Positions 9,329 through 35,057 of a stretch of DNA of 35,822 bases are shown here, in pieces. Position 1 is the stretch's first letter. Every line of letters begins with the position of its first letter. The notes below the pieces were generated by a model. The model did no database searches and was not told where the DNA came from. It saw only the letters and a list, made by a program, of their open reading frames with translations. A program made the translations under genes and the position numbers. This DNA is from a virus. The stretch is from UHGV virus genome UHGV-1355336; one strand, given 5' to 3'.

Positions 9329-9912
9329 TGGCATTCAGAATGAGTGAACAACCACGGACCATAAAAATTTATAATCTGCTGGCCGGAACTAATGAATTTA
9401 TTGGTGAAGGTGACGCATATATTCCGCCTCATACAGGTCTGCCAGCAAACAGTACCGATATTGCACCGCCAGATATTCCGGCAGGCTTCGTGGCTGTTTT
9501 CAACAGTGATGAGGCATCGTGGCATCTCGTTGAAGATCATCGGGGTAAAACGGTTTATGACGTGGCTTCCGGCGACGCGTTATTTATTTCTGAACTCGGT
9601 CCGTTACCGGAAAATGCCACTTGGTTATCCCCGGAAGGGGAGTTTCAGAAGTGGAACGGCACAGCCTGGGTGAAAGATGCAGAAGCAGAAAAACTATTCC
9701 GGATCCGGGAGGCGGAAGAAACAAAAAACAGCCTGATGCAGGCAGCGAATGAGCATATTGCGCCACTTCAGGATGCTGTAGATCTGGAAATCGCAACGGA
9801 GGAAGAAACCTTGTTGCTGGAAGCCTGGAAAAAGTATCGGGTGTTGCTGAACCGTGTTGATACATCAACTGCACCTGATATTGAGTGGCCTACGAACCCT
9901 GTCAGGGAGTAA
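9328..9912 (+). CDS. tfa: Tail fibre assembly chaperone Tfa
   Basis: 194 aa, start overlaps stf stop (TAATG); [54 protein letters not shown]... is typical Tfa. Confidence 0.85.
9751..9867 (+). repeat. Direct repeat copy 1 (3' part of tfa); copy 2 lies in the downstream tfa fragment
   Basis: [30 protein letters not shown] coding stretch recurs near-identically at ~10800-10913. Confidence 0.6.
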
Positions 9913-9966: not shown

Positions 9967-10635
9967 CTATTTTTTCCCTGAAGCGGAAAACATTACTACA
10001 GTACCTTGAACCTTGGTTTTAACATTCTCGAAATGCTCTGAGAGTATATGTGTTAAGCCTTCTTCGGAATCTTTTGTGTTTGAAAAGATACCTTTCTGAT
10101 TGTAAATGCGCATCAGTTTTTGACCGAAGCTATTGTGCACAACTCCATCGCCAAGAATTGTGGCTCCGTATAGAGTTCCATCGTCAGTTAAGGCCTGCGC
10201 CGCATTGCGTATTACACAGCTTTTTGTAGATATATTTCCAGGCAGGCAGTGAAGAAGGTAAAACATGGAAATGGAATCAAATTGACCATGTAACGCCGCG
10301 GGATAAGGTTCAAAAACATCATGGCTAATTTTATGTTTAATTTTTGATTCCCCAGCCCTTGTAGATGCCGCGTTCAGGCTAGCTTCGTTCAAATCCATTA
10401 AAGATATCAGACTACTCTCAGGTACGTGAGTAAGGTAAAAACCAGTTCCAACACCAATATCCAGATGGTTGTTACCTAAATGTTCCAGAAAGTGTGGAAG
10501 AAGGTGTTCCTTTGTAGGACATCCCCATGCAAGCCGATTTGATACTCCCAAAACCCACCAGTCATAAAGCTTTAGGGTAAGTGGTGTGTAAATTTTAGCC
10601 CCATCATCTGTGTTTTTTTTCATTAATTTCACCAT
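9967..10635 (-). CDS. Class I SAM-dependent methyltransferase (small-molecule/protein type); resembles K-12 DLP12 ybcY but apparently intact
   Basis: 222 aa with motif I LDIGVGTGFYL; sits between tfa and a tfa fragment, the recalled ybcY position. Confidence 0.6.
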   Translation of the reverse strand: MVKLMKKNTDDGAKIYTPLTLKLYDWWVLGVSNRLAWGCPTKEHLLPHFLEHLGNNHLDIGVGTGFYLTHVPESSLISLMDLNEASLNAASTRAGESKIKHKISHDVFEPYPAALHGQFDSISMFYLLHCLPGNISTKSCVIRNAAQALTDDGTLYGATILGDGVVHNSFGQKLMRIYNQKGIFSNTKDSEEGLTHILSEHFENVKTKVQGTVVMFSASGKK

Positions 10636-10691
10636 GTTATAGTTTTATTTGTGAATTAAATCAATTATGGCGATGAATTACAAGGGGTTAA

Positions 10692-10997
10692 ATGCTGCCG
10701 CAGCATAGCGATATTGAAATAGCCTGGTATGCTTCGATACAGCAGGAGCCGAATGGCTGGAAGACCGTCACCACACAGTTCTACATCCAGGAATTCAGTG
10801 AGTATATTGCGCCACTGCAGGATGCTGTAGATCTGGAAATCGCAACGGAGGAAGAAAGATCGTTGCTGGAGGCATGGAATAAATATCGGGTGTTGTTGAA
10901 TCGAGTTGATACATCAGTAGCTCTGGGTATGAAGCTGTTTGTAACTCATGTTACAGTAACAGCCATTACTATCTCGAGGGTGCAAAATGTATATTGA
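10692..10997 (+). pseudogene. Tail fibre assembly gene fragment (tfaX-like remnant)
   Basis: Only the C-terminal Tfa-homologous block ([39 protein letters not shown]) is present; N-terminal part unrelated; track start is a non-ATG codon. Confidence 0.6.
10800..10913 (+). repeat. Direct repeat copy 2 (tfa 3' homology)
   Basis: Near-identical to 9751-9867 at nucleotide level (tattgcgccacttcaggatgctgtagatctggaaatcgcaacggaggaagaaa). Confidence 0.6.
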
Positions 10998-11124
10998 TTT
11001 GATATTTTATAAATTTACTTCGAATCTGGCACGTCAACTTTTGATTAAAGTAATATCAGTTTTCGGCGAAAAAAGGACCGTGTACATGAGACGATTTCAT
11101 ACAAGAATAACAAAAATATGAATA

Positions 11125-11160
11125 TGCTCCCAATGCAATATATGTTTTGCATTGGGAGCA
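11125..11160. terminator. 14-bp perfect-stem hairpin 20 nt downstream of the hydrolase gene
   Basis: TGCTCCCAATGCAA-tatatgtt-TTGCATTGGGAGCA; AT-rich flanks on both sides. Confidence 0.45.
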
Positions 11161-11180
11161 AATAGCGGAATATTTTGAAA

Positions 11181-12665
11181 TTATTGTATTTCTGCTTCAG
11201 AATTTCCTGGGCAGTATATATTTTCTGGTTTTTGTGGAGTGATCAGGTGATGTACAACTGCTTTATCTACACATAAATTAACTCCGGTGAGAGCTAATGT
11301 ATGCCCATCACCATTTATTGTTAGTAACGGGCTGGAAAATTTCTCTGCCATCTTACGGGCATTAATCCAGGGCGTTGTTGGGTCGTATTTGTGTGCTACA
11401 AACAGTAAACCAGAGGGCAGAACAGTATTTTTCAGGCGAGTTTTGTTCAGGTCGCTATGTATTGGCCATAATTCACAAAAATCAGGTGAATCGGAACGTC
11501 CATTGTCAAAGTTAATAGCCGGGAAGGCATTCGCAAGAGCGTCTTTTCGGGATTTTCGCTCTTCTGGTGTTAATTGCTCATCCCCCTGATCTACACAGAG
11601 GATTACCCCCGAAGCATCGCTTGACTCTTCTGAGGCTATCGGAGCACTGAGCGCAGTTTCAATTTCATTACTGACAATCCCCTGAGAGAACTGGCGTATG
11701 GCAGTTGCAAGGGTTGGCCATGATGAACGCCATAGCAGAAGGTCTGTTGTTAATGATATGAGTTCATCTGAAGATATATTTTCTCCCTTACTGTCTAATA
11801 AAGGTTTGTGATGTAATTTTGATAATAGCTCATGGAACTGAGTTATTGCCTTATCTCTGTCTGAAGAAAGCGGGCAACTTTTTGTACGCGCACACCAGGA
11901 TGCAAAGCGATCAAACGTTTCCTGATAACTCTGTGCCTGTTTGAGTTGCCATGTGAAGTTGTCCTCCAGGTCATCGATATCGACGACTCCATCAAGAACG
12001 ATAGATCTTACGTTGTAGGGAAAACGTTCTGCATATAAGGCTGCAATTTGAGTTCCATACGAATACGCCACGGCTGTCAGTTGTTTATCCCCCAAGGCTT
12101 GCCTAATACGATCAATATCGTATACAGCCTCGTTAGAGCCGATATGGCGAATGACTTCGGCCCCGGTATTATGGATACAGGCATTAATTTTATTTAATAC
12201 TTGTTGCTTTTCGGTTATGTTTTCCTGAGTCTCTGTATCTGATTGCCGGCAGTTTATTGTCGGAGTGGACTGTCCGACGCCTCGAGGATCAAATCCAATA
12301 ATATCCCATGACTCACGAAGATTTGTGACTGGCCAGTCAAAGTTAATATAAGGATTTATGCCTGGTAACCCGGGACCACCACTTATTATCAGGATACTTC
12401 CTTTATGCTTGCTTTTTGCCGGCAATTTTGTCAACGCTAGTTTGACTTGTGATTTTTTTTCATAAGAAGCATCTCCGCCTGTGTCTGTATATTTTAATGG
12501 AACAGACAAATAACCACATAGTAAGTCAGGAGACGGTTTTTCCTCACCAAACCAGTGGTTGAATTGACTGGCCATACAGGATTGCCACTGTATCTGCTGG
12601 GCAGATACGGTTACTGGTAGAAGTAACGTTAAAACAACTTTGAAATGAGTAATTATTTTTCGCAT
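11181..12665 (-). CDS. Secreted alpha/beta-fold hydrolase (peptidase/esterase-like), function unknown
   Basis: 494 aa; N-terminal signal peptide MRKIITHFKVVLTLLLPVTVSAQ; nucleophile-elbow-like VAYSYGT; AT-rich cargo context. Confidence 0.6.
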   Translation of the reverse strand: MRKIITHFKVVLTLLLPVTVSAQQIQWQSCMASQFNHWFGEEKPSPDLLCGYLSVPLKYTDTGGDASYEKKSQVKLALTKLPAKSKHKGSILIISGGPGLPGINPYINFDWPVTNLRESWDIIGFDPRGVGQSTPTINCRQSDTETQENITEKQQVLNKINACIHNTGAEVIRHIGSNEAVYDIDRIRQALGDKQLTAVAYSYGTQIAALYAERFPYNVRSIVLDGVVDIDDLEDNFTWQLKQAQSYQETFDRFASWCARTKSCPLSSDRDKAITQFHELLSKLHHKPLLDSKGENISSDELISLTTDLLLWRSSWPTLATAIRQFSQGIVSNEIETALSAPIASEESSDASGVILCVDQGDEQLTPEERKSRKDALANAFPAINFDNGRSDSPDFCELWPIHSDLNKTRLKNTVLPSGLLFVAHKYDPTTPWINARKMAEKFSSPLLTINGDGHTLALTGVNLCVDKAVVHHLITPQKPENIYCPGNSEAEIQ

Positions 12666-12851
12666 TGTGTCTCTGAATATCGGAATAAAGATAAGATTTG
12701 AATATATTGAGGTCTTGTGTTGCGGTAAGAGATTACACGTTATGACATAGGTTAAATGCTTACAAAATTAGTGGATATTGCCTACTTGTAACTGTAAACA
12801 AATTCCCCGGGGTTATACAATACCACCGGGGAGAAAATCTGGTTAACTTCG

Positions 12852-13805
12852 TTAAAAGGTGTACTTAAGACCAGCAGTAGTGATGAAGTTATAGTTTTCT
12901 ATGCCTGCACCATTTTTGCTGTAGTCTGAAGTGTTATCATTGTGATCATAAAGTGAAGTATTACCTTTTTTATTCGTAACCCGATTCCATGCGCCTTCAA
13001 CATAAACCTTTGCGTTAGGTGTTACGTAATAACCTGCATTGACTGCAACAGAATAGTAATTTTGGTCTTTGACTTTACTGCGATAAGTGATTCTTTTTCC
13101 TGGGTCATAGTGCTCATCGTTATCAGATGCTTCCACCCAGCCGCTGTATTTAAATGTGCCACCTAGCTCAAAATCTTCATAACGATAACTTCCAGTCAAG
13201 CCAATGTAGGGCATTTTAAAACGTTGTTTGTAGCCGATTGCTCTTTCTCCATTCGGGAAGGAGCCGATATCATCTCTGAATCCCTCCTCAGAACTGTAGA
13301 TATAGGAACCACCTCTGGCTGTAAAGCTATAACGGCTTTCCTGATATCCGGCCATGAGTCCCAGGCGGTAATTGGGTTCGTTGAGGAGCCAGCCTTTGAT
13401 ATTCAGATCAAATTCGTTGGCATAATTGAGTTGTGTATCAGGGTGCCTACTTTCATCTGTCCAGGTTCCGGGGTTACTGGAATCCATCCAGTCCTGATCG
13501 ACCATATTGCCACCTCGGCTGTCGAGAGTAGTCCAGCCCGCAGCCCCAATAGATATCTGGGGCATCAAATCCCAATTAATTGCACCTTTAATAATTGCAG
13601 CGTTATTGAATTTCCAGTCGAGTTGACTGACTTTTCGGCCTCCTTCTTCAGCTAGATAAACGCGCTCTTTTGTTTTTCCGCTCAGAGTTCCAAGACTAAT
13701 GTCCGCATTTATGTTGTCAGGAGTAAACGATATAGTCTCGGTAGAAGCAAAAGAGCTGATCGCAATAGGGGTTGTCAGAACTATTCCCAGAAGTTTCGCC
13801 CGCAT
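12852..13805 (-). CDS. ompT: Outer membrane protease OmpT (omptin)
   Basis: 317 aa; matches recalled E. coli OmpT over its whole length apart from a few substitutions (signal peptide MRKLLGIVLTTPIAISSFA..., ends ...ITTAGLKYTF). Confidence 0.9.
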   Translation of the reverse strand: MRAKLLGIVLTTPIAISSFASTETISFTPDNINADISLGTLSGKTKERVYLAEEGGRKVSQLDWKFNNAAIIKGAINWDLMPQISIGAAGWTTLDSRGGNMVDQDWMDSSNPGTWTDESRHPDTQLNYANEFDLNIKGWLLNEPNYRLGLMAGYQESRYSFTARGGSYIYSSEEGFRDDIGSFPNGERAIGYKQRFKMPYIGLTGSYRYEDFELGGTFKYSGWVEASDNDEHYDPGKRITYRSKVKDQNYYSVAVNAGYYVTPNAKVYVEGAWNRVTNKKGNTSLYDHNDNTSDYSKNGAGIENYNFITTAGLKYTF

Positions 13806-27907: not shown

Positions 27908-28660
27908 ATGAACCTTGAAGCCTTACCAAAATATTACTCCCCAAAATCTCCAAAATTGAGCGATGACGCACCGGCGACAGGCTCAGGTGGTTTAACGATT
28001 ACGGATGTGATGGCTGCGCAGGGGATGGTGCAGTCGAAAGCACCGCTTGGGTTTGCCTTATTCCTGGCAAAAGTTGGTGTTCAGGATCCTCAGTTTGCGA
28101 TTGAAGGTCTGCTCAATTACGCGATGGCAATGGATAACCCGACATTGAACAAATTGAGTGAAGAAACCCGGTTACAGATCATCCCTTACCTTGTGAGTTT
28201 TGCCTTTGCTGATTATTCCAGGTCTGCGGCAAGTAAGGCTCGCTGTGAGCATTGTGCTGGTACTGGATTTCATAGTGTATTGCGCGAAGTGGTGAAACAC
28301 TCCAGAAGCGGGGAATCTGTTATCAAGGAAGAGTGGGTGAAGGAATTATGTCAGCATTGCCATGGTAAGGGAGAAGTCAGCACGGCTTGCAGAGGGTGTA
28401 AGGGTAAAGGCATTGTCCTGGATGAAAAAAGAACCCGGCTTCATGGCGCGCCTGTTTATAAGATTTGTGGGCGTTGCAATGGAAACCGGTTTAGTCGTTT
28501 ACCGACCACACTGGCACGACGTCATGTCCAGAAGCTGGTACCAGACCTGACTGATTATCAGTGGTACAAAGGATATGCAGACGTCATTGATAAACTGGTA
28601 ACAAAGTGCTGGCAGGAAGAAGCATTCGCTGAAGCACAATTGAGAAAGGTGACGAGATAA
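27908..28660 (+). CDS. Q: Late-gene antiterminator Q (QuuQ-type, 250 aa)
   Basis: Cys-rich zinc-binding region (CEHCAGTG...CQHCHGKG...CRGCKGKG...CGRCNG); followed by promoter-like sequence and an intrinsic terminator. Confidence 0.75.
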   Translation: MNLEALPKYYSPKSPKLSDDAPATGSGGLTITDVMAAQGMVQSKAPLGFALFLAKVGVQDPQFAIEGLLNYAMAMDNPTLNKLSEETRLQIIPYLVSFAFADYSRSAASKARCEHCAGTGFHSVLREVVKHSRSGESVIKEEWVKELCQHCHGKGEVSTACRGCKGKGIVLDEKRTRLHGAPVYKICGRCNGNRFSRLPTTLARRHVQKLVPDLTDYQWYKGYADVIDKLVTKCWQEEAFAEAQLRKVTR

Positions 28661-29870: not shown

Positions 29871-30932
29871 ATGAAAAACACTGTAAAAATAAACAGTATT
29901 GATTTAATCAACGCTGATTGCCTGCATTTTATTCAGTCCCTGCCTGATGATTCCATTGACCTGATTGTTACCGATCCGCCTTACTTCAAGGTGAAACCCA
30001 ACGGTTGGGACAATCAGTGGAAAGGGGACGAAGATTACCTTAAGTGGCTGGACCACTGTCTGGCCCAGTTCTGGCAGGTGTTGAAACCTGCCGGAAGCCT
30101 TTACCTGTTCTGTGGGCATCGCCTGGCATCTGATATTGAGATCATGATGCGTGAACGTTTCAACGTGCTTAACCATATCATCTGGGCGAAGCCGTCCGGA
30201 CGTTGGAATGGGTGTAATAAAGAAAGTCTGCGCGCATATTTTCCTGCCACAGAGCGCGTTCTGTTTGCTGAACATTACCGGGGGCCATATCGCGGCAAAA
30301 GTGACGGCTATGTGGCAAAAGAAAGGGAACTCAAACAGCACATAATGGCACCGCTGATATCGTATTTCAGGGATGCTCGTGCCGAACTGGGTATAACGGC
30401 AAAACAAATTGCCGAAGCCACAGGTAAGAAAAATATGGTTTCCCACTGGTTTGGTGCCAGTCAGTGGCAGTTGCCGAATGAGGCTGACTACCGGAAGTTA
30501 CAGGCACTGTTTTCCCGTATAGCGGCAGAGAAGTTTCAGGAACAACAACTGGAACAACCACACCACCAGTTGGTGGCATCTTATGATTCACTGAATCGCA
30601 AATATTCTGAATTGCTGGATGAGTTTAAATCTCTCCGGCGCTATTTCTCCGTATCAGTCTCCGTGCCTTATACCGATGTCTGGATGCATAAACCCGTTCA
30701 GTTCTACCCGGGTAAACATCCGTGTGAGAAACCGGCGGATATGCTCAGGCAAATAATCAATGCCAGTAGTCGACCCGGCGATCTGGTTGCTGATTTCTTT
30801 ATGGGATCCGGTTCCACAATAAAAGCAGCAATGGCGCTGGGGCGTCGGGCGTTAGGTGTTGAGCTTGAGACAGAGCGGTTTAATCAGACCATCCAGGAAA
30901 TCAGTATGTTATCAGCAAATACAATTTTGTGA
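29871..30932 (+). CDS. DNA methyltransferase, beta-class (motif IV DPPY before motif I FxGxG); likely N6-adenine, orphan
   Basis: VTDPPYF near the N-terminus and DFFMGSGST near the C-terminus; no adjacent restriction endonuclease candidate. Confidence 0.8.
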   Translation: MKNTVKINSIDLINADCLHFIQSLPDDSIDLIVTDPPYFKVKPNGWDNQWKGDEDYLKWLDHCLAQFWQVLKPAGSLYLFCGHRLASDIEIMMRERFNVLNHIIWAKPSGRWNGCNKESLRAYFPATERVLFAEHYRGPYRGKSDGYVAKERELKQHIMAPLISYFRDARAELGITAKQIAEATGKKNMVSHWFGASQWQLPNEADYRKLQALFSRIAAEKFQEQQLEQPHHQLVASYDSLNRKYSELLDEFKSLRRYFSVSVSVPYTDVWMHKPVQFYPGKHPCEKPADMLRQIINASSRPGDLVADFFMGSGSTIKAAMALGRRALGVELETERFNQTIQEISMLSANTIL

Positions 30933-31214: not shown

Positions 31215-31503
31215 CAACGAATCCTTCTGATCTGCTTTTGCGGGGCTTTTTTGTATCCGCTCCATGCCCGGCGTATAAGCGGAGGTTGGTCAGTTTTCTA
31301 AAAATTGAAATACCTCACAATTCAGCCAGTTAATGGTTGTTTGTCTGGCGAAGAGTTTGTAAATAAAAAAACGCATGGTGAATCCCCCTAAGCGGCGGGG
31401 CGAATCAGCAGTCAGTTCTGGGATAATCGCGGGTTCGTATGCTGATGCCGGACTCACCGGGAGGCACCCGGCACCATGCATCATGGTCATCCCCTTGTAT
31501 GAT

Positions 31504-31529
31504 ACCCCTCTCCGGAGGGGTATTTTTTG
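31504..31529 (+). terminator. Intrinsic terminator (ACCCCTC-TCCG-GAGGGGT then ATTTTTT)
   Basis: Read directly in ORF-poor DNA upstream of the holin. Confidence 0.6.
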
Positions 31530-31960
31530 GATAAAAAAGCCCGCGCTGGGAGGCACGGGCGGCAAGGAATAAAACGTGAAGAAATTTTCACAGGCGCATA
31601 ATAATCCGATGTTGCCAGATTTTGCAACTGCATCATCTGGTTATTATGTGAGCTGGAAAATCAGATTCTGTATGGACTGAAGCCATGCTGTTATTTAGGG
31701 CCAAAGAGCTGGCTTTTTCCCGCCTTCTCTCCAGTAACGATTAATGAGAAAAGAATGAAATGCTTTTCCTGGGGAGGAGGGCAGTAGAAAAAAGAACCCG
31801 CCAGCAAAAATATGGGGGATGAACAGCTTTTGCTACTCAGGTTGCTGGCGGGTATGGTTCTTCATGAAATAAGAATGTTACGCGGTATTTTTAATGAAAA
31901 TGATAATTATTGTCAATTGGTTGTGCGTATTTTTTCATACATGACTGGTAAAGGTGATTC

Positions 31961-31996
31961 AGGCCATCAGAGTTTTGCTGATGGCCTTTTTTCTTT
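31961..31996 (+). terminator. Intrinsic terminator (AGGCCATCAG-agttttg-CTGATGGCCT then TTTTTCTTT) 30 nt before the holin start
   Basis: 10-bp perfect stem; U-rich tail. Confidence 0.6.
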
Positions 31997-32025
31997 CCGG
32001 TAGCACAGGTCTGTTGGGGCGGGAT

Positions 32026-32241
32026 ATGTATCAGATGGAAAAAATATCAACAGGCATTGCCTACGGCACCTCCGCAGGCAGTGCTGGCTACTGGTTTTTA
32101 CAATGGCTTGATCAGGTTAGTCCGTCTCAGTGGGCTGCGATTGGTGTACTGGGAAGTCTGGTTCTGGGCTTTCTGACTTATCTGACGAATCTGTACTTCA
32201 AAATCAGAGAAGACAGAAGAAAGGCTGCGAGAGGAGAGTAA
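32026..32241 (+). CDS. S: Class II pinholin (phage 21 S-type) with dual-start motif
   Basis: [71 protein letters not shown] (71 aa), two TMDs, Met1/Met4 starts; matches recalled S21. Confidence 0.9.
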
Positions 32242-32245
32242 TATA

Positions 32246-32590
32246 ATGGTCCAAAACTATGAAATGATTGTGAAAGGGATCCGCAATTTTGAGAATAAAG
32301 TTACGGTAACTTTAGCATTACAGGACAAAGAACGCTTTGACGGTGAAATTTTTGACCTGGACATCTCGCTGGACCGTGTTGAAGGTGCCGCGCTGGAGTT
32401 TTATGAGGCAGCAGCCAGAAGGAGCATCAGACAGGTCTTCCTGGATGTTGCTACCGGGTTATGTGGAGGGGATGAGCAGTCGCCGGAAAAGCGCCCCATA
32501 ATTTTAGAGGCGCAGAGTGTGTGGATAACCTACAAAGGAAAACTGCCGGGAAGAATTACTGGTTCACTGAAGACTCCGCCGAAATGGTAA
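32246..32590 (+). CDS. Unknown protein inserted between holin and endolysin (possibly YdfR-like)
   Basis: 114 aa; SD AGGAGA 7 nt before ATG; co-directional with the lysis genes. Confidence 0.5.
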   Translation: MVQNYEMIVKGIRNFENKVTVTLALQDKERFDGEIFDLDISLDRVEGAALEFYEAAARRSIRQVFLDVATGLCGGDEQSPEKRPIILEAQSVWITYKGKLPGRITGSLKTPPKW

Positions 32591-32828
32591 TTTCACCAGC
32601 ATATTTTTCCTCCAGTAATACCGCCAGCCACTTGAAAGAATTTTGTTGTTGCTGGGACCATTTGGGATTGATTGATTCAAGCTGGAGCGATGCCAGTGTT
32701 GGTTGCATTTGTTCCTTGGGAATTGAGAATGCCAGATATGAAAATGCGACAGTAAGGGCATTTACATCATCCCGAAGCCTGGAAATGCAGTCGAGCAACT
32801 CCTGTAGAGAAATGGTGCTATTGTCCAT
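32556..32828 (-). CDS. Unknown small protein, convergent with the previous ORF
   Basis: ATG at 32828 with SD-like AGAGAGGA 6 nt upstream; 90 aa; 3' ends of the two ORFs overlap by ~35 nt. Confidence 0.35.
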   Translation of the reverse strand: MDNSTISLQELLDCISRLRDDVNALTVAFSYLAFSIPKEQMQPTLASLQLESINPKWSQQQQNSFKWLAVLLEEKYAGEITISAESSVNQ

Positions 32829-32933
32829 AAACAATCCTCTCTATTGTATTTAACTATTCCTTGCCTGATTCAACAGGCCGGGACAGATAAACATATCCAG
32901 GGTTCAGAAACCGATAAATCCTGATAAATATCC

Positions 32934-33467
32934 ATGAACGCAAAAATCAGATACGGCCTGTCGGCTGCCGTTCTGGCACTGATTGCCGTCGGTGCGCCTG
33001 CGCCTGATATTCTCGACCAGTTTCTGGATGAAAAAGAAGGTAACCACACAACGGCATACCGCGATGGTTCCGGCATCTGGACCATCTGTCGGGGTGCCAC
33101 GGTGGTGGATGGAAAACCCGTTGTTCCCGGTATGAAACTGTCGAAGGAAAAATGCGACCAGGTTAACGCCATTGAACGGGATAAGGCGCTGGCATGGGTG
33201 GAGCGCAATATTAAAGTGCCACTGACCGAACCACAGAAAGCGGGTATCGCGTCATTTTGTCCCTATAACATTGGCCCCGGTAAGTGTTTCCCGTCGACGT
33301 TTTATAAGCGGCTGAATGCCGGTGATCGTAAAGGTGCATGCGAGGCGATTCGCTGGTGGATAAAAGATGGTGGGCGCGATTGCCGCATACGTTCAAATAA
33401 CTGCTATGGACAGGTTATTCGTCGTGACCAGGAAAGCGCATTAGCCTGTTGGGGGATAGATCAGTGA
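32934..33467 (+). CDS. R: SAR endolysin (phage 21 R-type lysozyme)
   Basis: N-terminal SAR segment [16 protein letters not shown]; catalytic region [20 protein letters not shown] of T4-lysozyme-like enzymes. Confidence 0.9.
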
Positions 33468-33925
33468 GCAGAGTCGCCGCGATTATTTATGCTCTGGTTA
33501 TCTGCATCATCGTCTGCCTGTCATGGGCTGTTAATCATTACCGTGATAACGCAATCGCCTACAAAGCCCTGCGCGACAAAAATGCCAGAGAACTGAAGCT
33601 GGCGAACGCGGCAATTACTGACATGCAGATGCGTCAGCGTGATGTTGCTGCGCTCGATGCAAAATACACGAAGGAGTTAGCTGATGCGAAAGCTGAAAAT
33701 GATGCTCTGCGTGATGATGTTGCCGCTGGTCGTCGTCGGTTGCACATCAAAGCAGTCTGTCAGTCAGTGCGTGAAGCCACCACCGCCTCCGGCGTGGATA
33801 ATGCAGCCTCCCCCCGACTGGCAGACACCGCTGAACGGGATTATTTCACCCTCAGAGAGAGGCTGATCACTATGCAAAAACAACTGGAAGGAACCCAGAA
33901 GTATATTAATGAGCAGTGCAGATAG
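33464..33925 (+). CDS. Rz: Spanin inner-membrane subunit Rz
   Basis: GTG start overlapping the endolysin stop (GTGA); N-terminal [22 protein letters not shown]; coiled-coil periplasmic part; contains an embedded Rz1. Confidence 0.85.
33684..33866 (+). CDS. Rz1: Spanin outer-membrane lipoprotein Rz1 (embedded in Rz, +1 frame)
   Basis: Lipobox LVVVGC, proline-rich mature part ([18 protein letters not shown]); fully inside Rz. Confidence 0.8.
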
Positions 33926-33956: not shown

Positions 33957-34250
33957 TTATTTTGAGCAATACACCCGCGCTTCCAGCGGAGTATAAATGC
34001 CAAAAGTGATGAAACCGAGCAATCCATTTACGAATGTTTGCTGGGTTTCTGTTTTAACCACATTTTCTGCACCACCACAAATTTTTGCTGCATCGACAGT
34101 TTTCTTCTGCCCAATTCCCGAAACGAAGAAATGATGGGTGATGGTTTCCTTTGGTGTTACTGCTGTCGGTTTGTTTCCAACAGTAAACGTCTGTTGAGCA
34201 CATCCTGTAATAAGCATTGCCAGAGCGGCAGAAAACAACATTTTTTTCAT
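33957..34250 (-). CDS. bor: Bor lipoprotein (serum-resistance-associated)
   Basis: MKKMLFSAALAMLITGCAQQTFTVGNKPTAVTPKETITHHFFVSGIGQKKTVDAAKICGGAENVVKTETQQTFVNGLLGFITFGIYTPLEARVYCSK matches recalled lambda Bor (97 aa). Confidence 0.85.
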   Translation of the reverse strand: MKKMLFSAALAMLITGCAQQTFTVGNKPTAVTPKETITHHFFVSGIGQKKTVDAAKICGGAENVVKTETQQTFVNGLLGFITFGIYTPLEARVYCSK

Positions 34251-34730: not shown

Positions 34731-35057
34731 ATGAAAAGACGCCTTTTACTACTTTTTCTGTTATCTGTCCTAGCAGTGGGATGCTCGCAGCAAAAAGCTG
34801 ATGAGCCCCGGCAATTAGTGACGGTGTATCCACGATATCCGGAATATGCTGCAGCAAATTATATCAAGGGGCTGGTTGAGGTTAAGTTCGATATTGGTGC
34901 TGATGGGACTGTGACACGGATCGTTTTTCTCCGCTCAGAGCCTCATAATTTGTTTCGTGATGAAGTGGTGAAGGCCATGGCGAAATGGCGATTTGAAAAG
35001 AATCGTCCCTGTCAGGGAGTGAAGAGACAATTTATCTTTACGCCGTCACGTCCCTGA
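34731..35057 (+). CDS. Lipoprotein with TonB C-terminal-like domain
   Basis: Signal peptide plus lipobox MKRRLLLLFLLSVLAVGC; YPRYPEYAAANYIKGLVEVKFDIGADGTVTRIVFLRSEPHNLFRDEVVKAMAKWRF fits the TonB_C pattern; SD AGGAA upstream. Confidence 0.55.
   Translation: MKRRLLLLFLLSVLAVGCSQQKADEPRQLVTVYPRYPEYAAANYIKGLVEVKFDIGADGTVTRIVFLRSEPHNLFRDEVVKAMAKWRFEKNRPCQGVKRQFIFTPSRP

What the first reader, a model, noticed from the sequence alone, without database searches (positions are those of the whole stretch)
32246..32834. Convergent two-gene insertion between pinholin and SAR endolysin
Holin and endolysin are normally adjacent. Here a 114-aa + strand ORF and a 90-aa - strand ORF, each with a plausible RBS, overlap at their 3' ends within a ~700-bp insert. 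The - strand gene would need its own promoter and could be lysogen-expressed. Possible roles are lysis timing, antisense regulation or exclusion. A gene in this position (ydfR) is recalled in the Qin prophage, but its function is unknown.
Basis: partly seen in the sequence, partly recalled or inferred. Interest (0 to 1): 0.6.

Follow-up and report, generated by a model that had tools for sequence, protein, structure and literature searches.

The report
Convergent ydfR–ybl58 module in lysis cassette
Between the holin and endolysin genes of this E. coli prophage lie a common late gene (ydfR, whose K-12 relative binds RNase E) and a real opposite-strand gene for a small helical protein; related phages carry the same tail-to-tail pairing, but its function is still unknown.

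Summary
A 114-codon + ORF (32246-32590) and a 90-codon - ORF (32556-32828) fill the 692-bp gap between a P21-type pinholin and a SAR endolysin, and their 3' ends overlap by 35 nt. RefSeq annotates both.

- **The + gene is ydfR (DUF1327).** It is a routine resident of this position, matched at least in part in 4349 of 5426 complete E. coli genomes. Residues 1-73 are 81% identical to the part of K-12 YdfR reported to bind the RNase E catalytic half.
- **The - gene is real.** It belongs to the Ybl58/PHROG 2411 family. The ORF is intact in 30 of 33 alleles, pN/pS is 0.33, and homologues of 30-62% identity occur in other Enterobacterales. It encodes an acidic, soluble three-helix protein and is present in 1130 of 5426 genomes.

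The new point concerns phage-borne family members. In four of five phage-borne lineages they sit tail-to-tail with a late-strand gene ending in one shared peptide, and the fifth shows a weaker version. That peptide is [IY][KN]G-x5-6-[RKQ][IL][TF]G[SD][LI]xxP, conserved at the protein level but not the DNA level. Here it forms the YdfR C-terminus. Chromosomal homologues have no such partner.

So this looks like a mobile convergent two-gene module. Its function is unknown, no promoter was found, and nothing links it to lysis timing. Interest is moderate.

The parts
31344..31532 (+). Late-promoter-proximal RNA (Rfam STnc100) ending in a terminator-like hairpin at 31501-31524. It marks the start of the late operon that reads through S, ydfR, R and Rz.
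   Evidence: RF02076, 114.5 bits against a gathering score of 47; terminator-like site. The antiterminator gene at 27908-28660 is annotated.
32026..32241 (+). P21-type class II holin (pinholin), 71 codons, with a dual-start motif MYQMEK.
   Evidence: PF04971, E 2.6e-35. RefSeq 'class II holin family protein'. KD(19) 1.72 transmembrane segment.
32246..32590 (+). ydfR, 114 codons, DUF1327/YdfR family. It is an acidic soluble protein and a late gene.
   Evidence: PF07041, 143.8 bits; phrog_406, E 3.7e-65; dN/dS 0.25-0.82 across allele pairs, most 0.3-0.5; intact in 33 of 33 alleles; no transmembrane segment, pI 5.5.
32246..32464 (+). YdfR N-domain (residues 1-73), predicted as three beta strands plus one helix. 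It corresponds to the RNase E/G-binding part of K-12 YdfR.
   Evidence: 81% identity to K-12 YdfR residues 1-73. PMC13232886 places the interaction surface within residues 1-72. E5-14, E18-27, E34-43, H50-73, with 10-residue-block pLDDT means of 61-84 over residues 1-70.
32531..32590 (+). YdfR C-terminal tail YKGKLPGRITGSLKTPPKW*. The same peptide motif ends the late-strand partners of ybl58 homologues in other phages.
   Evidence: the motif in L110, L100, L016 and L120; 11-17 of 27 nt differ in the 9-codon core, with 1-5 codons per pair differing only synonymously; shuffle tests; pLDDT below 50 in the monomer model.
32556..32828 (-). ybl58-family gene (PHROG 2411), 90 codons from ATG 32828. 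It encodes an acidic soluble three-helix protein. Residues 82-90 are encoded antisense to the ydfR 3' end.
   Evidence: phrog_2411, E 3.5e-59. RefSeq CDS; no stops in the - frame and pN/pS 0.33; intact in 30 of 33 alleles; helices 8-34, 38-52 and 59-76, pLDDT 82.6, residues 81-90 below 50. UniRef name Ybl58.
32586..32875 (.). The roughly 290-bp segment present here but absent from otherwise collinear ydfR-R loci (606R7 type). GC is 42.1%, against 47.6% in ydfR (32246-32585) and 52.6% in R.
   Evidence: alignment A1 with L002; partial matches resume at about 32878-32890. GC values.
32829..32933 (-). Upstream region of ybl58. It holds an SD GAGG at 32839-32836, a small hairpin GCCTG-TTGAAT-CAGGC at 32878-32863, and a weak TTGAAT-19 nt-TACAAT promoter-like pair at 32873-32843. 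No consensus promoter is present.
   Evidence: sequence; no - strand promoter hit in this region; 32829-32875 is the most variable stretch (pi 0.094), while the SD and the stem are kept.
32934..33467 (+). SAR endolysin of the R21/T4-lysozyme type.
   Evidence: PF00959, E 7.6e-25. N-terminal KD 1.87; dN/dS 0.04-0.11.
33464..33925 (+). Rz i-spanin, with the embedded Rz1 o-spanin ORF at 33684-33866.
   Evidence: PF03245, E 1.6e-53; embedded 60-aa ORF with a lipobox-like VVGC and a proline-rich sequence.

Best explanation
The holin-endolysin spacer holds two real genes, and together they form a recurrent convergent module.

(1) ydfR is a normal late gene of P21-type lysis cassettes. It is transcribed with S, R and Rz from the Q-antiterminated late promoter. 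Its N-domain (residues 1-73) is the part of K-12 YdfR that binds the catalytic half of RNase E and co-purifies with RNA. It therefore most likely acts on RNA decay in the cytoplasm late in infection, not on the envelope.

(2) On the other strand lies a Ybl58/PHROG 2411 gene for an acidic, soluble three-helix protein.

(3) The pairing is not accidental. In phages, ybl58-family genes sit tail-to-tail with, and overlap, a late-strand gene ending in one conserved C-terminal peptide: [IY][KN]G-x5-6-[RKQ][IL][TF]G[SD][LI]xxP. In this window that peptide is the YdfR C-terminus.

Proposed working, all inferred. ybl58 is transcribed from its own promoter, which I could not identify, while late transcription is off, that is in the lysogen. 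Converging late transcription then silences it. Its product recognises the conserved tail of its late-expressed partner. It would thereby hold back, or tune, the partner's activity (here an RNase E/RNA-binding protein) until late expression outruns it.

Shown: gene reality, family membership, the variable presence of the roughly 290-bp segment, the recurrence of the pairing, protein-level conservation of the tail, and the absence of membrane segments.
Inferred: expression pattern, protein-protein contact and physiological role.
For: - **ydfR identity and position.** PF07041 at 143.8 bits. At least a partial match in 4349 of 5426 E. coli genomes. The S-ydfR-R order recurs in Qin, mEp460 and 606R7. 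The N-domain is 81% identical to the RNase E-binding part of K-12 YdfR, and that binding rests on two-hybrid and co-purification data in PMC13232886.
- **ybl58 is a gene.** RefSeq annotates a CDS, and phrog_2411 matches at E 3.5e-59. The - frame has no stops and pN/pS 0.33, whereas the + antisense frame has stops (3 of 6 variants; 7 of 33). The ORF is intact in 30 of 33 alleles. Homologues occur in Citrobacter, Serratia and Sodalis. The three-helix model is confident, pLDDT 82.6.
- **Module recurrence.**
  - Citrobacter prophage: a 63-aa gene ending KITGSLRAPIKL* overlaps a homologue of 62% identity, just upstream of the holin.
  - Tail cluster between the M and L genes: a 71-aa gene ending QIFGDLKKPPSY*.
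  - Terminase-proximal: an ORF ending RLTGDILIPLES*.
  - The overlap geometry is identical in the window and in Citrobacter.
- **Similarity statistics.** Citro63 vs L100_71 gives shuffle p = 0.0004.
- **Tail conservation is at the protein level.** 11-17 of 27 nt differ in the core while residues are kept, with 1-5 codons per pair differing only synonymously.
- **Chromosomal homologues have no partner**.
- **The regions that would meet are disordered alone.** The YdfR tail and the last 10 residues of Ybl58 have pLDDT below 50 in the monomer models.
Against: - There is no expression evidence. No consensus sigma-70 promoter lies upstream of ybl58 in the window or in four homologous loci.
- ydfR alleles that keep the tail but lack ybl58 are common: the 116-aa class ending KTPPESQP*. 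The tail therefore does not depend on a ybl58 in cis.
- ybl58 carries nonsense or frameshift changes in some alleles.
- The similarity between the YdfR tail and the Citrobacter partner is short: 11 residues, shuffle p = 0.016, which is not significant after multiple testing. BLASTP finds nothing.
- One phage-borne partner (L108) shows only a weak version of the motif, and the L104 partner shows none.
- The published RNase E data concern the K-12 protein, which lacks this tail. Its overexpression barely changed the transcriptome.
Confidence: 0.5

Rival explanations
1. Independent moron. ybl58 is a stand-alone lysogenic-conversion or fitness gene that happens to have landed next to ydfR, with no functional link to it. 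The shared tail reflects common descent of the flanking DNA only.
For: - The family has free-standing chromosomal members: Serratia between dinI and bssS, Sodalis, and an E. coli IS-rich island.
- ydfR occurs widely without ybl58.
- The insert has lower GC than its flanks.
- The same junction holds a second, unrelated antisense gene, phrog_2572, in 294-364 genomes. That suggests a permissive hotspot for antisense cargo.
Against: - The tail is kept at the protein level while its DNA has diverged at 41-63% of positions.
- The pairing recurs at four different phage genome positions with partners that have different N-terminal parts.
- There is no recognisable promoter or terminator pair of the kind that defines classic morons.
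Confidence: 0.27
2. Antisense or transcription-interference control of lysis. What matters is convergent transcription from the ybl58 promoter across ydfR and S, or collision with the late transcript before R. It would damp leaky holin or endolysin expression in lysogens, or set lysis timing. The protein itself would be secondary.
For: - The 3' ends overlap by 35 nt.
- A - strand terminator-like hairpin appears only at 32064-32050, inside S, so a ybl58 transcript could cover ydfR and part of S.
- Two unrelated antisense genes occupy the same ydfR-R junction.
Against: - The protein is under purifying selection and conserved across genera.
- Homologous modules sit in tail and terminase regions, where lysis genes are not the antisense target.
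- No promoter was found.
- K-12 Qin and many phages lyse-cassette-wise without it.
Confidence: 0.1
3. Defence, superinfection-exclusion or toxin-antitoxin pair. One product would be toxic or abortive and the other its antidote.
For: It is a small two-gene convergent cassette that is mobile between phage positions and variably present. Prophage accessory genes on the opposite strand often serve exclusion, which is general knowledge.
Against: - PADLOC gives no hits for either protein, and Pfam and NCBIfam give none for Ybl58.
- Both proteins are soluble and acidic, with no nuclease, kinase or membrane features.
- Tail-bearing YdfR exists without ybl58.
- Overexpression of K-12 ydfR is not reported to arrest growth, whereas yegJ overexpression is.
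Confidence: 0.08
4. The - strand ORF is not a gene. It would be an antisense ORF kept open by the codon usage of some + strand feature.
For: - The + strand also has a 110-codon ORF across the same stretch, 32521-32853.
- That frame shares third codon positions with the - frame, so its pN/pS is equally low, 0.26.
Against: - The + frame has stops in 3 of 6 and 7 of 33 alleles, whereas the - frame is open in 6 of 6 and 30 of 33.
- Homologues of 30-62% identity exist in other genera and other contexts.
- The predicted fold is confident.
Confidence: 0.02

Closest known systems
YdfR / DUF1327 (PF07041), e.g. E. coli K-12 Qin prophage YdfR (P76160)
   Same: - Same family (143.8 bits).
- Same position between a P21-type holin and an R21-type lysozyme.
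- Residues 1-73 are 81% identical. This is the region reported to bind RNase E residues 1-597 and RNase G.
   Different: - The C-terminal third differs. K-12 has a 30-residue helix and its stop overlaps the rrrQ start.
- The window protein instead has the 'EKRPIILEAQ..KGKLPGRITGSLKTPPKW' segment, followed by a 343-nt gap that holds an antisense gene.
Phage morons: accessory genes inserted in late operons, such as lambda bor/lom. The iss/bor gene of this same prophage lies at 33957-34250.
   Same: - Present in some but not all otherwise collinear phages.
- Opposite strand to the late operon.
- Lower GC than the flanks.
- Has chromosomal relatives.
   Different: - No recognisable own promoter or terminator.
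- It travels with a conserved peptide-coding 3' end of the gene on the other strand, which classic morons do not.
Phage proteins that target RNase E: phiKZ Dip, T7 gp0.7, T4 Srd
   Different: - There is no sequence relationship.
- Dip binds the C-terminal scaffold, whereas YdfR binds the catalytic half.
- No effect on RNA decay has been shown for YdfR.
Convergent, 3'-overlapping type I toxin-antitoxin loci, e.g. txpA/ratA and bsrG/SR4 (recalled from memory)
   Same: Two small convergent genes with overlapping 3' ends on a mobile element.
   Different: - Here both strands encode conserved soluble proteins.
- There is no hydrophobic toxin peptide.
- No antisense sRNA family was detected.

Membership tests
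YdfR / DUF1327 (PF07041) | Match to the Pfam model above its gathering score | tested here: met
   143.8 bits against a cut-off of 25, covering residues 1-112 of the protein and positions 1-92 of the 93-position model.
YdfR / DUF1327 (PF07041) | Location between a P21-type holin and its lysozyme in a lambdoid late operon | tested here: met
   with the same order in K-12 Qin, mEp460 and 606R7.
YdfR / DUF1327 (PF07041) | Binding of the RNase E catalytic half through residues 1-72, the property reported for the K-12 member | not testable with these tools
   Only sequence conservation could be checked: 81% identity over residues 1-73. The binding data come from PMC13232886.
Ybl58 / PHROG 2411 | Full-length match to the family profile | tested here: met
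   E 3.5e-59 over positions 1-90 of 90; the same 90%-identity cluster as proteins named Ybl58 in UniRef.
Phage moron | Present or absent between otherwise collinear phage genomes | tested here: met
   the roughly 290-bp segment is absent from L002; 1130 of 5426 genomes carry it, against 4349 with at least a partial ydfR match.
Phage moron | Own promoter and terminator flanking the gene | tested here: not met
   One search finds no - strand sigma-70 consensus between 32829 and 33000, and no terminator before 32064-32050. Only a TTGAAT-19 nt-TACAAT pair can be read by eye. The scan covers consensus sigma-70 promoters only.
Phage moron | Expression from the repressed prophage | not testable with these tools
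   No transcript data are available. Literature searches for ybl58 and for the protein accessions returned nothing.
Holin/antiholin or other membrane-acting lysis regulators | Transmembrane or SAR segment, or a secretion signal | tested here: not met
   maximum KD(19) is 0.58 for YdfR and 0.88 for Ybl58, against 1.72 for S21 and 1.87 for the SAR domain of R.
Known anti-phage defence or toxin-antitoxin systems | Match of either protein to a defence or TA profile | tested here: not met
   no PADLOC hit at E <= 1; no Pfam or NCBIfam hit for Ybl58.

The most novel reading that the evidence does not exclude
The tail-to-tail pair would be a new kind of mobile two-gene phage module.

- A 'keeper' protein, the three-helix Ybl58, is expressed in the lysogen. 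It binds a short conserved C-terminal tag.
- That tag is carried by late-expressed effectors with interchangeable N-terminal domains. Here the effector is an RNase E-binding domain. Elsewhere it is a short coiled coil.
- Convergent transcription makes expression of the two mutually exclusive.

The module would then act as a safety catch, or a timed switch, on effector activity such as control of host RNA decay at the lysogeny-to-lysis transition.
Probability: 0.2. Interest if true: 0.65.

Novelty: new variant of a known kind. Interest (0 to 1): 0.4.

Why it matters
- **ydfR.** It sits in the lysis cassette of most E. coli lambdoid prophages, Shiga-toxin phages included, yet it has no assigned role. 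The 2026 report that it binds RNase E gives the first handle on its function.
- **The paired gene.** In about a fifth of E. coli genomes ydfR is paired with a conserved opposite-strand gene, and the same pairing recurs in other phages and at other genome positions. This yields a concrete and cheap hypothesis: Ybl58 recognises the YdfR tail.
- **Testability.** The hypothesis can be tested in BL21(DE3), which carries the module.
- **If the pairing is functional,** it would add a new small regulatory module to phage late operons, and possibly a new way for prophages to touch host RNA decay.
- **If it is not,** the locus is an ordinary accessory-gene hotspot.

Tried and rejected
1. **Sequence libraries for Ybl58.** Pfam, NCBIfam, PADLOC and PDB gave no hits. 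YdfR also has no PDB relative.
2. **Fold searches.**
   - The afdb50 library was unavailable.
3. **ybl58 as an inverted copy of the C-terminal extension of 176/183-aa YdfR.** No similarity.
4. **The second antisense gene at this junction (phrog_2572) as a remote Ybl58 homologue.** BLASTP found nothing, and hhalign gave a probability of 0.25%.
5. **The + strand 110-codon ORF at 32521-32853.** It has stops in 7 of 33 alleles, so it was rejected.
6. **Pairwise similarity of all partner proteins.** Only Citro63 vs L100_71 is clearly significant. The L104 and L108 partners are not.
7. **Promoter scans upstream of five family members.** No consensus sigma-70 site was found.
8. **Literature searches.** 'ybl58' and the RefSeq accessions or PHROG id returned nothing. 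'DUF1327' returned one unrelated genomics paper.
9. **Collection scans.** Scans of genome contigs with family alignments failed because no segment was conserved enough. The viral-contig scan with P0188 found nothing.
Full report
**1. Observation**

The window carries a lambdoid prophage at the argU/DLP12 site of an avian pathogenic E. coli. It is 100% identical to strain 789. The late region reads as follows:

- Q antiterminator, 27908-28660.
- A late-promoter-proximal RNA (Rfam STnc100), 31344-31532.
- A P21-type pinholin, 32026-32241.
- A 692-bp spacer.
- A SAR endolysin, 32934-33467.
- Rz and Rz1, then iss/bor on the opposite strand.

There is a 114-codon + ORF at 32246-32590. There is also a - ORF at 32556-32828, which is 90 codons from the ATG, or 92 from a TTG at 32834. 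Their 3' ends overlap by 35 nt. RefSeq annotates both, as 'YdfR family protein' and 'hypothetical protein'.

**2. The + gene**

It is a clear member of DUF1327/YdfR (PF07041, 143.8 bits; phrog_406).

It is not an unusual insertion. A ydfR-like sequence is matched, at least in part, in 4349 of 5426 complete E. coli genomes. The S-ydfR-R order is also found in K-12 Qin (where the ydfR stop overlaps the rrrQ start), in phage mEp460, in vB_EcoM-606R7, and in H-19B, BP-4795 and many Stx phages.

It evolves faster than S or R. Its dN/dS is mostly about 0.3-0.5, against 0.04-0.14 for those genes. It is nonetheless intact in 33 of 33 distinct alleles.

A 2026 paper (PMC13232886) reports several things about K-12 YdfR:

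- It binds the N-terminal catalytic half of RNase E, and more weakly RNase G, in two-hybrid and co-purification assays.
- The interaction surface lies within residues 1-72.
- RNA co-purifies with it.
- Overexpression changes few transcripts.

The window protein is 81% identical to K-12 YdfR over residues 1-73 and unrelated after that.

The predicted structure has three beta strands and a helix over residues 1-73, with moderate confidence. The rest (residues 71-114) has pLDDT below 50. The protein has no hydrophobic segment.

**3. The - gene is real**

- Among six divergent alleles, the - frame has no stop and pN/pS 0.33. The other frames score about 1, except the + frame that shares its third codon positions. 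That frame has stops in 3 of 6 alleles.
- Among 33 distinct sequences from IMG/VR and RefSeq, the - ORF is intact in 30. The + antisense ORF is broken in 7.
- Variable sites fall 16/13/31 at codon positions 1/2/3.
- It matches PHROG 2411 over its full length, and UniRef calls it Ybl58.
- An exhaustive profile search of 1.84 billion representatives found only 20 clusters. A second profile search found 125 clusters. Nearly all named ones are Enterobacterales (Escherichia, Shigella, Citrobacter, Serratia, Sodalis, Chania, Gibbsiella and others), apart from two partial records labelled Pseudomonas. All named ones are 'hypothetical', and none has a Pfam domain.
- The AlphaFold model is a confident three-helix protein (helices 8-34, 38-52 and 59-76; pLDDT 82.6). 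Its last ten residues are disordered.
- It is acidic (pI 4.4) and has no membrane segment.

**4. What is variable**

Alignment with collinear loci that lack the - gene (606R7 type) shows that the sequences diverge 5 nt before the ydfR stop, at 32585/32586. They rejoin at about 32876, upstream of R. Roughly 290 bp is therefore present or absent.

- This segment has 42.1% GC, against 47.6% in ydfR (32246-32585) and 52.6% in R.
- It is found in 1130 of 5426 E. coli genomes, including BL21/Rosetta, where it lies in the Rac region. It occurs in only 3 of 50,697 deposited phage genomes.
- Residues 82-90 of Ybl58 are encoded antisense to the ydfR 3' end. They coincide with the disordered tail of the model.
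- A homologue in an IS-rich, non-phage island of E. coli CE0011b loses similarity near that point.
- The same ydfR-R junction holds a second, unrelated cassette in 294-364 genomes. It consists of a 176/183-aa YdfR with a C-terminal extension, plus a convergent 86-codon gene of PHROG 2572.

**5. The pairing recurs elsewhere**

This is the main new result. I looked up the genomic contexts of distant Ybl58 homologues.

Chromosomal copies stand alone:

- Serratia, between dinI and bssS.
- Sodalis.
- An unidentified genome.
- The E. coli IS-rich island.

Phage-borne copies lie on the strand opposite to the late genes. Each converges on, and overlaps by 7-35 nt, a small late-strand gene:

| Context | Late-strand partner | C-terminus |
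|---|---|---|
| Citrobacter prophage, just upstream of holin and lysozyme | 63 aa | KINGETRNEKITGSLRAPIKL* |
| Lambda-like tail cluster, between genes M and L | 71 aa | IKGNIFSDQIFGDLKKPPSY* |
| Next to the terminase genes | ORF of at least 66 codons | IKGGQLRYKRLTGDILIPLES* |
| Next to gene M | 60 aa | EGKLILRDGSLVSF* (weaker version) |
| This window | YdfR, 114 aa | YKGKLPGRITGSLKTPPKW* |

Further points about the pairing:

- The overlap geometry is the same in the window and in Citrobacter. In both, the partner's stop codon lies opposite the I-T codons of '..ITI..' in the Ybl58 homologue.
- The nine-codon core of the motif differs at 11-17 of 27 nucleotides between lineages, yet the residues are kept, with 1-5 codons per pair differing only synonymously. 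Conservation is therefore at the protein level. It is not a by-product of shared DNA or of overlapping coding, because in the other lineages the overlap covers only the last few codons.
- In shuffle tests the Citrobacter and tail-cluster partners are significantly similar over their whole length (p = 0.0004). The match between the YdfR tail and the Citrobacter tail is short (p = 0.016), and BLASTP does not report it.
- The upstream parts of the partners differ. Here it is a DUF1327 domain; elsewhere it is a short coiled coil.

I read this as a mobile convergent two-gene module. In this phage lineage its late-strand member is fused to the YdfR N-domain.

**6. How it may work**

*Established here.* Both proteins are cytoplasmic, so they cannot act like holins, antiholins or SAR-domain regulators. 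Neither matches any known defence or toxin-antitoxin family. ydfR lies in the late transcript. ybl58 cannot be part of it and must be transcribed against it.

*Not established.* I found no consensus sigma-70 promoter upstream of ybl58, either here or in four homologous loci. Reading by eye gives only a good SD, a small conserved hairpin, and a weak TTGAAT-19 nt-TACAAT pair whose start site would fall on the SD.

*Best reading (confidence about 0.5).* ybl58 is expressed when late transcription is off. Ybl58 recognises the conserved C-terminal tail of its late-expressed partner. It thereby restrains or tunes that partner, which here is an RNase E/RNA-binding protein.

*Arguments against this reading.* Tail-bearing ydfR alleles without ybl58 are common. 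Some ybl58 alleles are broken. No interaction test could be run.

*Rivals:*

- An unlinked moron in a permissive hotspot (0.27).
- Antisense or transcription-interference control of lysis genes (0.10).
- A defence or toxin-antitoxin pair (0.08).
- Not a gene (0.02).

**7. Comparison with what is known, and verdict**

ydfR is a known family, and its function has only just begun to be studied. Ybl58/PHROG 2411 is an annotated but entirely uncharacterised family. My literature searches found nothing on it.

The arrangement resembles a moron. However, it fails the promoter and terminator criterion, and it has a feature that morons lack: a conserved peptide on the facing gene.

The premise that the holin and endolysin should be adjacent is wrong for this cassette type. 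The proposed roles remain untested.

I rate this a new variant of a known kind, with moderate interest (0.4). It is common, already annotated and not surprising in outline. The recurrent gene-plus-tail pairing is, as far as I could find, undescribed, and it gives a directly testable hypothesis that connects to the RNase E finding.

Noticed in passing
L013 2501-3239, with identical DNA in L014 and L015. The equivalent site in the window is 32586-32875.: The same ydfR-R junction carries an alternative cassette in 294-364 E. coli genomes. It consists of a 176/183-aa YdfR with a C-terminal extension after '..KTPP', plus a convergent, overlapping 86-codon gene of PHROG 2572. That gene has no detectable similarity to Ybl58. 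Its ATG is mutated to ACG in two of three loci, although an upstream GTG remains.
   Followed up: partly
L016 3950-4003, L100 3950-4003, L108 405-458, L104 770-823: Distant ybl58 homologues share a motif, GATGGCTGATTAAC, about 25-35 nt upstream of the start codon. It lies within a hairpin whose outer stem differs between loci; 3 of 8 predicted pairs show compensatory changes in four sequences. The motif also reads as a mini-ORF, ATG GCT GAT TAA. The E. coli cassette has a different small hairpin at 32878-32863.
   Followed up: partly
window 32894-32851 (- strand): A short upstream ORF of 14 codons (MFICPGLLNQARNS*) precedes ybl58 on the - strand. It stays open, at 14-18 codons, in two other divergent alleles (L003, L010). 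This may be chance.
   Followed up: no
window 31344-31532 (+): A full-length match to Rfam STnc100 (114.5 bits), ending in a terminator-like hairpin at 31501-31524. This is presumably the short late-promoter leader transcript that Q antiterminates.
   Followed up: no
window 31961-31987 (+): A strong terminator-like hairpin (10-bp stem followed by a T-run) lies about 40 nt upstream of the pinholin start. It sits inside an annotated 63-codon 'hypothetical protein' (31812-32003). It also produces a sub-threshold SgrS hit.
   Followed up: no
window 33957-34250 (-): The bor homologue of this prophage is annotated as iss (increased serum survival lipoprotein), a virulence-associated moron. It is followed on the - strand by a weak terminator-like site at 33898-33884.
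   Followed up: no
L003 2281-4299 (phage phiSTEC1575-Stx2k): In this Stx2k phage, the pinholin-ydfR-ybl58 block is not followed by the SAR endolysin. Instead there is a second complete lysis set (two holin-family genes and an M15 peptidase). The P21-type holin is thus left with no annotated SAR endolysin downstream.
   Followed up: no
L106 1-4279 and L109 1-3282 (L109 from Serratia marcescens; L106 from an unnamed metagenome assembly with the same gene order): The chromosomal ybl58 homologue lies between dinI and bssS, only about 2 kb downstream of rne (RNase E). This is probably coincidental gene order, but it is noted because YdfR binds RNase E.
   Followed up: no
window 9671-9869 (+) and 10488-13096 (+): There is an Rfam IS009 match (213.9 bits) in the fimbrial operon, between the genes annotated fimA and fimC. 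The usher gene sfmD is annotated as frameshifted in the identical RefSeq genome.
   Followed up: no
window 29871-30932 (+) and 34731-35057 (+): Two further accessory genes flank the lysis region. One is a DNA methyltransferase upstream of the late promoter. The other is a TonB-family protein downstream of iss.
   Followed up: no
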